From Escherichia phage S127 BCL3, in the sequence record OQ626344: DNA of 64,000 bases; one strand, written 5' to 3'. The position numbers and the translations under genes were made by a program. Below are positions 29,902-30,951 of this stretch, in pieces; positions within the stretch are counted from its first letter, which is position 1, and each line of letters begins with the position of its first letter. Under the pieces are notes generated by a model. That model searched no databases, was not told where the DNA came from, and worked only from the letters and a program-made list of their open reading frames with translations.

Positions 29902-30951
29902 ATGAATTTAACACCTCGCAGCACCATGGTACACGGCATGAAAGAAAAACAGAACGGCTTCGAACCGATGAGTAATAAAATGTTTGGTATGCCTGGTGGT
30001 ATTATGGAAACATACAGCTACCCAACGCCAGTTGTTGACCACGTGCTTTATATTGACGATCTTGATGATTTGCAGGATCATATGTCCCGTTTGCAAACAA
30101 TTCGTATGGCACAGCCGGAAGAAAGTATCCGTGTAATTGTTAACAGCCCTGGTGGTTGCGTCCACATTGCCATGGCGTATTTGCAGGCATTCCGCGAGTC
30201 TCAGGCAAGCGTTGTTGTACACGCTGAAGGGATGTGCTGCTCAGCAGGAACAATCTTATGGCTGGGTTGCAAAGAACGAACTGTGGCTCCGGACACAGAG
30301 TTTATGTTCCACTACTATCAAGGTGGCACCTATGGCAACGGTGTGAACATGAATACTCAGGTCAACTACTGGAAGAAACGTTTTGAACGCCTGATCGAAA
30401 AATACTACGGTGGGGTTCTGACAGAAGATGAGATCGCATCCATCACGGCTGGTGGAGAAGTGTGGTTGGATGGAGAAGAGCTGGCAGCTCGAACTGGTGC
30501 TATCATTCTGGACGATGAAAACATTCAGCGCATTCAGAATGGGCAGAAACCGAAAAAGCTTTTGGCAAAAAGTGATGAAGAAGGTGTGCTAGGCGAAGCA
30601 GGCCTGCCAGAGATTCACCAATGCACATCTCTGGACGAGCTGGTTCACGCTGTTGAGTCTGCAAAAGCAAATGGTATGAAAGGTGATGTTCACACTGTGT
30701 TCCTAAATCTGCAGATGGAGAGTGGTGAGACCGTTAAGATTGCACTGGGTGAGATTACCTCGGAAGATCTGCAGCGATTCTCTGTGGTAGAGCTTCAGGA
30801 CATTTTGTCCCAATTGAAAACCACCCTGAACGGAGGTGAAGAAGTTCAGGTTAAAGATAAGACCCGCAAGCGTCTGGTGGACAATATTATTAAAACAGCA
30901 AAAGAGCTCAATGAAAAAATCCTGGGCGCAGGAATTATCGAAGAAGCTTAA
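29902..30951 (+). CDS. ClpP-like serine peptidase with about 150-aa C-terminal extension
   Basis: VNSPGG, GMCCSAGT (Ser) and MFHYYQGG (His) align with ClpP INSPGG / GQAASMGA / MIHQPLGG. Confidence 0.65.
   Translation: MNLTPRSTMVHGMKEKQNGFEPMSNKMFGMPGGIMETYSYPTPVVDHVLYIDDLDDLQDHMSRLQTIRMAQPEESIRVIVNSPGGCVHIAMAYLQAFRESQASVVVHAEGMCCSAGTILWLGCKERTVAPDTEFMFHYYQGGTYGNGVNMNTQVNYWKKRFERLIEKYYGGVLTEDEIASITAGGEVWLDGEELAARTGAIILDDENIQRIQNGQKPKKLLAKSDEEGVLGEAGLPEIHQCTSLDELVHAVESAKANGMKGDVHTVFLNLQMESGETVKIALGEITSEDLQRFSVVELQDILSQLKTTLNGGEEVQVKDKTRKRLVDNIIKTAKELNEKILGAGIIEEA

What the first reader, a model, noticed from the sequence alone, without database searches (positions are those of the whole stretch)
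29902..30951. ClpP-like peptidase with long C-terminal extension located among early metabolic genes
Seen in sequence: ClpP-like motifs (VNSPGG, CCSAGT, MFHYYQGG) followed by about 150 extra residues, between phoH and a methyltransferase rather than among head genes. Established knowledge: phage ClpP-like proteins are usually prohead proteases adjacent to portal and capsid genes. Inference: either the head module begins nearby outside this window, or this protease targets host or phage regulatory proteins.
Basis: partly seen in the sequence, partly recalled or inferred. Interest (0 to 1): 0.4.

Follow-up and report, generated by a model that had tools for sequence, protein, structure and literature searches.

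The report
Non-capsid ClpP-like protease of rV5-like phage
This is the already-annotated ClpP-like protease gene of rV5-type E. coli phages (rV5 gp122): it is a second phage protease, separate from the capsid-maturation protease, sits with nucleotide-metabolism genes, has no known function, and shows no sign of working with the host's ClpX/ClpA motors despite its "ATP-dependent" label.

Summary
ORF 29902-30951 (+) encodes 349 aa: a ClpP-fold domain (aa ~45-215; Pfam CLP_protease E=1e-12; Foldseek to ClpP E~6e-9) followed by a ~135-aa linker and C-terminal domain. It lies after PhoH and a 103-aa ORF, and before a small methyltransferase.

The window is a Vequintavirus. The protein is 100% identical to phage B9-1's and is the ortholog of rV5 gp122, annotated since 2013. 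The head module starts at the window's left edge (TerL 5' end at 1-496, minus strand), about 29 kb away on the other strand. That module has its own prohead protease, a Peptidase_S78_2 mis-annotated as "DNA methyltransferase".

The ClpP-like gene has a sigma70-like promoter and an intrinsic terminator. Its ICP1 homolog lies in a gene range reported to include genes peaking mid-infection. Ser114 and His137 are invariant; ClpP Asp171 is Glu186 here. The hydrophobic pocket that docks ClpX/ClpA is replaced by invariant charged residues. The C-terminal domain has no detectable relatives but is under purifying selection.

PhoH and the ClpP-like gene are neighbours in at least five unrelated phage lineages. 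The function is untested. My best reading is a cytoplasmic, unfoldase-independent peptidase that is not the head protease. This is a known gene with moderate-to-low interest.

The parts
29475..29503 (+). sigma70-type promoter-like site TTGACA-17-TATTAT (11/12), upstream of the 103-aa ORF; equals rV5 promoter P121
   Evidence: searches (scan; sequence), rV5 Table S4 in PMC3606486
29529..29840 (+). 103-aa ORF (rV5 gp121 ortholog, phrog_5456, unknown function), apparently co-transcribed with the protease gene; kept directly upstream of the protease gene in all 17 related IMG/VR loci
29891..29895 (+). AAGGA ribosome-binding site 6 nt before the ATG at 29902
   Evidence: sequence read directly
29902..30951 (+). 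ClpP-like protease gene, 349 aa (rV5 gp122 ortholog; 100% aa identity to phage B9-1)
29902..30033 (+). N-terminal segment aa 1-44; sequence-conserved from G29 (FGxPG...YSYP) but predicted disordered in the monomer; no counterpart of the ClpP axial loop or helix A was recognised
30034..30546 (+). ClpP-fold peptidase domain aa 45-215; oxyanion motif NSPGG (81-85); Ser114 (30241-30243), His137 (30310-30312), Glu186 (30457-30459) at the ClpP Ser97/His122/Asp171 positions
30547..30630 (+). variable, low-confidence linker aa 216-243
30631..30930 (+). C-terminal alpha/beta domain aa 244-343 (helix, beta-hairpin, three helices; invariant F293, E297, R322); restricted to Vequintavirinae-type long forms, no detectable relatives elsewhere
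30966..30987 (+). intrinsic terminator GCCCTC-TTCG-GAGGGC-TTTTAT, 15 nt after the stop codon; identical to rV5 t122
   Evidence: sequence; rV5 Table S4
28642..29430 (+). PhoH-like ATPase gene (context; recurrent neighbour of this protease family)
31003..31536 (+). 177-aa methyltransferase-like ORF with NPPY motif (context; conserved downstream neighbour; its start overlaps the protease stop in more distant relatives)
1..496 (-). 5' part of the large terminase gene, the only piece of the packaging/head module inside the window

Best explanation
The gene encodes a stand-alone ClpP-fold serine peptidase that acts in the infected cell's cytoplasm during the DNA-metabolism (early/middle) phase. It is not the capsid-maturation protease. 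Shown: it has a ClpP-like catalytic domain with conserved Ser114 and His137, an intact oxyanion motif, and Glu186 at the Asp position. It is transcribed as a two-gene unit (103-aa ORF plus protease) bounded by a host sigma70-type promoter and an intrinsic terminator. It sits in the nrd-PhoH-methyltransferase block, about 30 kb from a head module that has its own S78-type protease. Inferred: it assembles into ClpP-like rings, since the handle helix is present. It does not recruit host ClpX/ClpA through the canonical IGF-loop pocket, because that pocket is replaced by conserved charged residues. The lineage-specific C-terminal domain on its flexible linker would then supply substrate or partner recognition, or gating. 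Substrates are unknown; host or phage cytoplasmic proteins are more likely than capsid proteins.
For: Fold and motifs. Ser114 and His137 are invariant in 19 long-form sequences and in 13 sequences of the wider family that include E. coli ClpP. Purifying selection: dN/dS is 0.03-0.04 over the whole gene, 0.015-0.018 in the protease domain and 0.05-0.10 in the C-terminal domain. Separate head protease: FV3 ORF062, next to the portal gene, matches Peptidase_S78_2 at 64.6 bits against a cutoff of 24. It is 188/190 identical in the nearest relative NHEP1, is annotated prohead or serine protease in other Vequintavirus records, and is 40% identical to the ICP1 'capsid protease'. Its CB7 counterpart was detected in virions. 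Distance and strand. Promoter and terminator. [quoted passage not shown] The protein was not found in rV5 or CB7 virion mass spectrometry. Docking pocket: E. coli ClpP Y60/F82/I90/M92/F112/L114 align, in an ungapped block, to R77/E99/H107/E109/T127/A-or-S129; five are invariant in the long-form family and position 129 is always Ala or Ser, and L48/F49 fall in a deletion (pocket residue list). TIGR00493 ClpP scores 32 bits against a cutoff of 309. Family members in 80 uncultured-phage loci sit among RNR, nuclease, resolvase-like and PhoH genes, not head genes.
Against: No experiment exists on this protein or any close homolog, and a 2023 paper calls the function of the T5-like homolog unknown. 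After its own families, the next-best profile matches are ClpP-related head-maturation proteases (NF045542 at 61 bits; phrog_1684/94/2976) rather than cellular ClpP. The distant BF23 homolog was detected at low level in purified virions. The third triad residue is Glu here and Gln in most long-form clades, so catalytic strength is uncertain. The oligomeric state and the absence of ClpX/ClpA binding are inferred from alignment and a monomer model only. Early/middle timing in Vequintavirus rests on a predicted promoter and on ICP1 gene-range data that do not report gp211 individually.
Confidence: 0.6

Rival explanations
1. It is an accessory or second head-maturation or virion-associated protease, encoded away from the head genes, that enters proheads or virions and processes structural or internal proteins.
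For: The nearest curated families outside its own are ClpP-related head-maturation proteases. The distant T5-like homolog (BF23 ORF45) was detected in purified virions with 3 peptides. Proteases usually leave the capsid, so absence from the rV5 and CB7 virion lists is weak evidence.
Against: The head module has its own S78_2 protease in the canonical position after the portal gene, and CB7 virions contain that one, not the ClpP-like one. The gene has a sigma70-type promoter, whereas the rV5 late promoters have a different consensus and lie in the structural modules. The ICP1 homolog lies in a nucleotide-metabolism gene range while the capsid operon is late. NF045542 scores 61 bits against a cutoff of 120. 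The BF23 virion preparation also contained dihydrofolate reductase, so carry-over is plausible.
Confidence: 0.15
2. It is what the database label says: a ClpP proteolytic subunit that docks host ClpX/ClpA (alone or mixed with host ClpP) to form an ATP-dependent protease retargeted by the phage.
For: ClpP fold and Ser-His conservation. The handle helix is present. The annotation 'ATP-dependent protease subunit' appears in many records.
Against: Six of the seven alignable hydrophobic pocket residues that bind IGF/LGF loops are polar, charged or small (invariant R77, E99, H107, E109, T127; A/S129) and two more are deleted. No N-terminal axial loop or helix A was recognised. The ClpP equivalog model scores 32 bits against a cutoff of 309. 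ClpP R170 aligns to invariant Gly185 (the sensor role of R170 is from memory).
Confidence: 0.07
3. It is a catalytically weakened ClpP-like protein that acts mainly by binding, for example as a decoy or inhibitor of host proteolysis or as an assembly platform, rather than by cleaving substrates.
For: The catalytic Asp is replaced by Glu in the rV5 clade and by Gln in most other long-form clades, while all short forms keep Asp. A conserved charged surface replaces the docking pocket. An extra conserved C-terminal domain is present.
Against: Ser114, His137 and the NSPGG oxyanion motif are strictly invariant over sequences that are only 40% identical overall. That degree of conservation is hard to explain without catalysis. 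From general knowledge, Ser-His-Glu triads and Ser-His dyads can be active.
Confidence: 0.08
4. It works together with the neighbouring PhoH-like P-loop ATPase as a phage-specific two-component machine, with the ATPase delivering or remodelling substrates for the peptidase.
For: PhoH and the ClpP-like gene are co-oriented neighbours in Vequintavirinae (16/17 loci), ICP1, Vibrio phage PWH3a-P1, Otagovirus PHB09 with an 8-nt overlap, Barbavirus, and 30 of 80 uncultured-phage loci. PhoH is either upstream or downstream and never on the opposite strand.
Against: Linkage is absent in T5-like, N4-like and schizoT4-like phages and in 50 of 80 uncultured loci. In the window a promoter and a stem-loop separate PhoH from the protease unit. 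PhoH proteins are not known unfoldases. Both genes may simply belong to the same conserved metabolic module.
Confidence: 0.08

Closest known systems
rV5 gp122 / FV3_00114 and orthologs in Vequintavirus genomes (phrog_5410, 'ClpP ATP-dependent protease subunit')
   Same: Same gene: 349 aa, 95-100% aa identity, same neighbours, same predicted promoter P121 and terminator t122.
   Different: Nothing material; this window is one more isolate. No function has been published for any of them.
Vibrio phage ICP1 gp211 and Vibrio phage PWH3a-P1 VPIG_00091 (long ClpP-like proteins, 326 and 321 aa)
   Same: ClpP-like domain with about 35% identity to ICP1 over aa 53-197, and 28% to PWH3a-P1 over aa 64-340. 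Same nrd / PhoH / small ORFs / ClpP-like / ligase arrangement. ICP1 also has a homologous S78-type capsid protease elsewhere.
   Different: They keep Asp at the triad position. Their C-terminal extensions show no detectable homology to the one here (hhalign probability 0.2%).
Short ClpP-like proteins of phrog_1827 (T5-like phages including BF23 ORF45, Otagovirus, Barbavirus, many uncultured phages; ~190-240 aa)
   Same: Same catalytic domain family (E=2e-38 to phrog_1827); located in early or DNA-metabolism regions; coexist with a separate prohead protease in T5-like phages (pb11 in T5, ORF164 in BF23); function stated as unknown.
   Different: No C-terminal domain; canonical Asp retained; BF23 ORF45 was seen in virion preparations.
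Bacterial ClpP (MEROPS S14; TIGR00493; e.g. E. coli ClpP, PDB 1TYF)
   Same: Fold, NSPGG oxyanion motif, Ser and His positions, handle helix.
   Different: About 20% identity; scores far below the equivalog cutoff. Asp171 becomes Glu and R170 becomes Gly. The ClpX/ADEP hydrophobic pocket is replaced by charged residues. No recognisable N-terminal gating loop or helix A. Extra C-terminal domain.
ClpP-related phage head-maturation proteases (NCBIfam NF045542, NF045540; phrog_1684/94/133)
   Same: Closest curated profiles after its own families; both are phage-borne ClpP-fold proteases, often with C-terminal extensions.
   Different: Scores below the curated cutoff (61 against 120). Not in a head module and not under a late promoter. 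The genome already has an S78-type prohead protease. The extension is a small alpha/beta domain, not a scaffold or capsid-protein fusion.

Membership tests
Bacterial-type ClpP (S14, TIGR00493) | ClpP/crotonase-like fold of the peptidase domain | tested here: met
   Pfam CLP_protease 48.8 bits against cutoff 20.2; Foldseek to ClpP structures E~6e-9, TM(target) 0.59-0.72
Bacterial-type ClpP (S14, TIGR00493) | Score above the curated equivalog cutoff | tested here: not met
   TIGR00493 32.4 bits against cutoff 308.6; all other ClpP models are also far below cutoff
Bacterial-type ClpP (S14, TIGR00493) | Ser-His-Asp catalytic triad | tested here: inconclusive
   Ser114 and His137 are invariant. The Asp171 position is Glu186 here, Gln in most long forms and Asp in short forms. 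Activity is untested.
Bacterial-type ClpP (S14, TIGR00493) | Hydrophobic apical pocket that docks IGF/LGF loops of ClpX/ClpA (Y60, Y62, F82, I90, M92, F112, L114, L48, F49) | tested here: not met
   Aligned residues are R77, I79, E99, H107, E109, T127 and A/S129; all except position 129 are invariant or conservatively I/V. L48/F49 fall in a gap. Pocket list from 10.1101/2023.03.01.530711. This is an alignment-based test, not a structural one.
Bacterial-type ClpP (S14, TIGR00493) | N-terminal axial gating loop and helix A | tested here: not met
   The Pfam match starts at profile position 32. The AlphaFold model has no helix before the first strand, and aa 1-43 have pLDDT below 50. The alignment to E. 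coli ClpP in this region is poor. The monomer model limits the strength of this test.
Bacterial-type ClpP (S14, TIGR00493) | Two stacked heptameric rings | not testable with these tools
   No multimer prediction or experiment was available. The handle helix (aa 148-169) is present, but the ClpP R170 position is Gly185.
ClpP-related head maturation protease (NF045542) | Score above the curated cutoff | tested here: not met
   61.3 bits against cutoff 120
ClpP-related head maturation protease (NF045542) | Encoded in the head module next to portal, scaffold and major capsid genes | tested here: not met
   In FV3 the gene is at 91.0 kb (+) and the head module at 53-60 kb (-). The arrangement is the same in NHEP1, and in the window only the TerL 5' end is present, at 1-496.
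ClpP-related head maturation protease (NF045542) | It is the phage's prohead protease (no other candidate) | tested here: not met
   A Peptidase_S78_2 gene follows the portal gene (64.6 bits against cutoff 24). Homologs are annotated prohead or capsid protease and were detected in CB7 virions.
ClpP-related head maturation protease (NF045542) | Late expression with structural genes | tested here: inconclusive
   A sigma70-like promoter lies at 29475-29503, and the rV5 late-promoter motif was reported only in structural regions. The ICP1 homolog lies in a gene range that includes genes peaking at 12 min. No transcript data were found for Vequintavirus.
PHROG 5410 (Vequintavirinae-type long ClpP-like protease) | Full-length match to the family profile | tested here: met
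   E=9.1e-155, aa 24-344 on profile positions 4-321 of 323; conserved synteny in 17 of 17 related loci

The most novel reading that the evidence does not exclude
The ClpP-like peptidase has lost the ClpX/ClpA docking pocket and instead works with the recurrently linked PhoH-like P-loop ATPase, and perhaps the small upstream ORF, as a phage-specific, host-independent ATP-driven degradation or remodelling machine deployed during genome replication. The orphan C-terminal domain would act as the docking or substrate-selection module. If true, this would assign a function both to phage PhoH, a widespread marker gene of unknown role, and to the phage 'Clp protease' family.
Probability: 0.08. Interest if true: 0.7.

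Novelty: already known. Interest (0 to 1): 0.27.

Why it matters
The gene itself is not new. It has been annotated in rV5 since 2013 and is present, nearly unchanged, in more than 100 sequenced Vequintavirus genomes, several of which are therapy or biocontrol candidates.

Three points are useful. First, the usual label "ATP-dependent Clp protease proteolytic subunit" is probably misleading, because the surface that would bind host unfoldases is not conserved. Second, the true prohead protease of these phages is a different gene, and pipelines commonly mislabel it "DNA methyltransferase". Third, ClpP-like peptidases in metabolic modules, often next to PhoH, are a widespread phage gene family with no known function.

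A knockout plus N-terminomics in an easily grown E. coli phage would be a cheap way to find out what this family does.

Tried and rejected
I tried to identify the C-terminal domain (aa 216-349) in five ways, and none gave a match.
- Pfam scan of 15 family members: nothing significant. HeH and SAP each matched one member at E~0.1, which I treat as no more than an unverified lead.
- Profile search of PDB sequences: best E=1.2.
- Separate AlphaFold model plus Foldseek against PDB: best E=2.1.
- Exhaustive profile search of 1.84 billion representatives: only the family itself and its fragments. Two other hits (P0122, P0124) are Cna_B and cadherin repeat proteins, which I rejected as spurious.
- hhalign against the ICP1 and PWH3a-P1 extensions: probability 0.2%.

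PADLOC gave no defence-system match for the protease, the 103-aa ORF or the 116-aa ORF. PhoH and the methyltransferase gave only weak generic helicase and methyltransferase hits.

Literature searches for phage-encoded ClpP, ICP1 gp211 and Vequintavirus transcriptomics found no functional study.

I first read the alignment as showing that ClpP Asp171 corresponds to Ile181. Numbering checked by script showed it corresponds to Glu186, so I withdrew the 'no acidic third residue' idea.

Single-linkage clustering of the 80 uncultured loci collapsed them into 4 groups. The 30/80 PhoH linkage therefore cannot be read as 30 independent events.
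Full report
**1. Observation**

The ORF at 29902-30951 (+) is real. It is 349 aa, starts at an ATG, and has AAGGA 6 nt upstream.

- Pfam CLP_protease matches aa 59-169 at 48.8 bits (cutoff 20.2, E=9.7e-13).
- PHROGs gives a full-length match to phrog_5410 'ATP-dependent protease' (E=9e-155). It then matches phrog_1827 (E=2e-38) and, much more weakly, several head-maturation-protease families.
- An AlphaFold model built on 19 family members has a disordered N-terminus (aa 1-43), a confident ClpP fold (aa 45-215), a low-confidence linker (216-243) and a folded helix / beta-hairpin / three-helix domain (244-343).
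- Foldseek matches the N-terminal domain to many ClpP structures (E~6e-9).

So the 'ClpP-like domain plus ~135-150 extra residues' description is correct. Downstream lies a 177-aa methyltransferase-like ORF with an NPPY motif (31003-31536).

**2. What genome this is**

The gene is 99.8% identical in nucleotides to Escherichia phage NHEP1. Its protein is 100% identical to that of phage B9-1. 116 GenBank phage records carry it at 80% identity or more over most of its length, and all are Vequintavirus (rV5/FV3-like myoviruses of about 137 kb).

It is the ortholog of rV5 gp122, listed in 2013 as 'ClpP (ATP-dependent) protease subunit', 349 aa. The window is collinear with FV3 positions 59.6-123.9 kb.

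**3. Where the head genes are**

In FV3 and NHEP1 the packaging and head genes run on the minus strand in this order: TerL, portal, a 190-aa ORF, a 325-aa ORF, decoration protein, major capsid protein. Only the first ~165 codons of TerL fall inside the window (positions 1-496, minus strand). The rest lies just beyond the left edge.

The ClpP-like gene is therefore about 29 kb from TerL and about 34 kb from the portal-proximal genes. It is on the other strand, with tRNA, ligase, nuclease, thymidylate synthase and RNR genes in between.

The 190-aa ORF after the portal gene is annotated 'DNA methyltransferase' in FV3 and NHEP1. It actually matches Pfam Peptidase_S78_2 (XkdF-type phage serine protease) at 64.6 bits against a cutoff of 24.

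- It is 188/190 identical between FV3 and NHEP1.
- It is present at 95% identity or more in 117 records.
- It is called prohead protease, serine protease or peptidase in some of them.
- It is 40% identical to the 'capsid protease' of ICP1.
- In the related Certrevirus CB7, the gene in the equivalent position (CB7_5, 'prohead core protein protease', 21 kDa) was detected in virions, and no Clp protein was listed.

The head module therefore has its own protease in the canonical position.

**4. Expression signals**

A sigma70-type promoter-like site (TTGACA-17-TATTAT) lies at 29475-29503, upstream of the 103-aa ORF. A strong hairpin followed by a T-tract (GCCCTC-TTCG-GAGGGC-TTTTAT) lies at 30966-30987, 15 nt after the stop codon. 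The consensus terminator scan did not list this site; I read it directly from the sequence and matched it to rV5 t122.

The rV5 authors predicted exactly these two elements (P121 and t122). They found a different motif for late promoters, and only in the structural regions. The 103-aa ORF and the protease thus look like a two-gene unit read by host RNA polymerase.

I found no Vequintavirus transcriptome. rV5 virion mass spectrometry found 19 proteins and gp122 was not among them, but the survey was shallow.

**5. Relatives elsewhere**

Database searches separate two groups sharply: a long form (~300-375 aa, over 300 bits, Vequintavirinae and allied genera) and a large set of short forms (~190-240 aa, 154 bits or less).

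All 17 related IMG/VR loci keep the block 116-aa ORF / PhoH / (insertions) / 103-aa ORF / ClpP-like / methyltransferase / small ORF. The one exception is a locus that lacks the upstream part of the block, including PhoH. In the more distant members the protease stop overlaps the methyltransferase start.

Outside the subfamily the picture is:

| Phage (lineage) | ClpP-like protein | Context |
|---|---|---|
| ICP1 (Mohonavirus) | gp211, 326 aa | nrdA / nrdB / ... / PhoH / two small ORFs / ClpP-like / ... / ligase |
| Vibrio phage PWH3a-P1 | 321 aa | same arrangement as ICP1 |
| Pseudomonas phage PHB09 (Otagovirus) | short form | PhoH stop overlaps the ClpP-like start by 8 nt |
| Rheinheimera phage Barba18A (Barbavirus) | short form | PhoH / ClpP-like / DNA methyltransferase |
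| Providencia phage PR1 (T5-like) | 234 aa | follows dNMP kinase in the early region |
| Vibrio phage D481 (schizoT4-like) | short form | between dihydrofolate reductase and a DNA repair gene |
| Vibrio phage VBP32 (N4-like) | short form | heads a block of small ORFs, no PhoH nearby |

In 80 further uncultured-phage loci, PhoH lies within about 2 kb in 30. It is always co-oriented, sometimes upstream and sometimes downstream. The other frequent neighbours look like resolvase, nuclease and RNR genes (my reading of the sequences), not head genes. These 80 loci collapse into only four sequence clusters at 50% identity, so the count is not a count of independent events.

[quoted passage not shown] It places the capsid operon gp122-gp126, including its own protease gp125, among late genes. 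It does not report gp211 individually.

T5 has a defined prohead protease, pb11. [quoted passage not shown]

So coexistence of a head protease and a separate ClpP-like protein is a recurring pattern, and the function of the ClpP-like protein is acknowledged as unknown.

**6. Is it a ClpP in the mechanistic sense?**

The table below gives the positions that align to functional residues of E. coli ClpP. The alignments used include E. coli ClpP, and I checked the numbering against the published ADEP/IGF pocket list, where every residue type matched.

| E. coli ClpP residue | Role | Window residue | Conservation |
|---|---|---|---|
| Ser97 | catalytic | Ser114 | invariant |
| His122 | catalytic | His137 | invariant |
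| Gly68 / Met98 | oxyanion | Gly85 / Ala115 | invariant in the phage proteins |
| Asp171 | catalytic | Glu186 | Glu in rV5-like clade, Gln in other long forms, Asp in all short forms, ICP1 and T5-like |
| Arg170 | neighbour of Asp171 | Gly185 | invariant |
| Tyr60 | docking pocket | Arg77 | invariant |
| Tyr62 | docking pocket | Ile79 | Ile or Val |
| Phe82 | docking pocket | Glu99 | invariant |
| Ile90 | docking pocket | His107 | invariant |
| Met92 | docking pocket | Glu109 | invariant |
| Phe112 | docking pocket | Thr127 | invariant |
| Leu114 | docking pocket | Ala129 | Ala or Ser |
| Leu48 / Phe49 | docking pocket | (deletion) | - |

The pocket positions from Tyr60 to Leu114 lie in an ungapped alignment block. 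No equivalent of the N-terminal gating loop or helix A is recognised.

NCBIfam scores the protein at 32 bits on the ClpP equivalog model (cutoff 309) and at 61 bits on 'head maturation protease, ClpP-related' (cutoff 120). It passes neither.

I conclude that the fold and the nucleophile/base pair are ClpP-like. The features that make ClpP an ATP-dependent protease subunit are tested here by alignment and are not met. The 'ATP-dependent' label is inherited from the Pfam name.

**7. The extension**

The C-terminal domain is found only in this long-form family. Pfam, PDB sequence profiles, Foldseek on a separate model and an exhaustive profile search of 1.84 billion representatives gave nothing beyond the family itself, apart from two spurious repeat-protein hits. 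The similarly long tails of ICP1 and PWH3a-P1 are not detectably related to it.

The domain is nevertheless constrained. dN/dS against FV3 and an IMG/VR relative is 0.05-0.10 for the domain and 0.015-0.018 for the protease domain. F293, E297 and R322 are invariant across sequences that share about 20% identity in this region.

The helix-loop-helix pattern around these residues resembles SAP/HeH motifs, but the profile support is negligible. I list this only as a lead.

**8. Interpretation**

The best-supported reading (about 0.6) is a cytoplasmic, early/middle-phase, stand-alone ClpP-fold peptidase that is not the capsid-maturation enzyme and is unlikely to use host ClpX/ClpA. Its private C-terminal domain would provide partner or substrate recognition.

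- Shown: domain architecture, conserved catalytic Ser and His, separation from the head module, the existence of a distinct head protease, the promoter and terminator, the conserved context, and purifying selection.
- Inferred: ring assembly, independence from unfoldases, expression timing, and non-capsid substrates.

Rivals are an accessory head or virion protease (0.15), a true ClpX/ClpA partner (0.07), a mainly non-catalytic binder (0.08), and a functional pair with PhoH (0.08, which is also the most novel reading).

**9. Novelty and verdict**

The gene, its annotation and its location are already in the public record for more than 100 genomes. That does not hold for this large family.

What this analysis adds:
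- the identification of the real, mis-annotated prohead protease;
- sequence evidence against the 'ATP-dependent' label;
- the orphan but constrained C-terminal domain;
- the recurrent PhoH linkage.

Novelty: already known. Interest: 0.27.

Noticed in passing
outside the window: L002 6404-6976 (-) = FV3 56404-56976; L024 6021-6593 (-) in NHEP1: The 190-aa gene after the portal gene is annotated 'DNA methyltransferase' (via phrog_1530) in FV3, NHEP1, JES2013, HMD-6, CR8 and others. It matches Pfam Peptidase_S78_2 at 64.6 bits and is 40% identical to the ICP1 capsid protease. This is a propagating mis-annotation of the prohead protease.
   Followed up: yes
window 28642-29430 with 29902-30951; L004, L006, L025, L026, L029-L108: The PhoH-like ATPase and the ClpP-like gene are co-oriented neighbours in at least five unrelated phage lineages and in 30 of 80 uncultured-phage loci. 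PhoH can be upstream or downstream, and in Otagovirus the two genes overlap by 8 nt.
   Followed up: partly
window 25307-27430 (+) versus FV3 85636-88554: The anaerobic ribonucleotide reductase large subunit (nrdD) is one intact 707-aa ORF in the window. In FV3 it is annotated in two pieces separated by an HNH homing endonuclease. The window lacks about 800 bp at that point (alignment break at window 26166/26167).
   Followed up: partly
window 1600-2411 (-): ARAGORN calls seven tRNA genes (Pro, Met, Thr, Ser-tga, Tyr, Arg, and a 99-nt call with a four-base anticodon at 1844-1942). FV3 annotates only five in the homologous cluster.
   Followed up: no
window 29435-29457 (+): A perfect 8-bp stem-loop (AAGGGTGG-TTATT-CCACCCTT) sits just after the PhoH stop codon and just before the promoter-like site. 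It has no clear T-tract. It may separate the PhoH unit from the protease unit.
   Followed up: no
window ~43100-45650: This is the convergence zone between the plus-strand and minus-strand gene blocks. It has only short ORFs, the lowest G+C in the window (0.39), and patchy similarity to FV3, where about 2.2 kb (104.3-106.6 kb) carries no annotated gene.
   Followed up: no
window 31003-31536 (+) and 31464-31817 (+): The 177-aa methyltransferase-like ORF matches only the C-terminal half of phrog_799 (profile positions 199-381 of 458) and is below Pfam thresholds, although it has NPPY. It overlaps the start of the next ORF. In more distant relatives its start overlaps the protease stop codon.
   Followed up: no
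GenBank records MG065655, MG065659, MG065684, MG065676 (hits H24, H25, H30, H66): Eighteen or more records named 'Campylobacter phage' with host C. jejuni carry Vequintavirus sequence 90-100% identical to E. coli phages. This suggests mislabelled or contaminated submissions.
   Followed up: no
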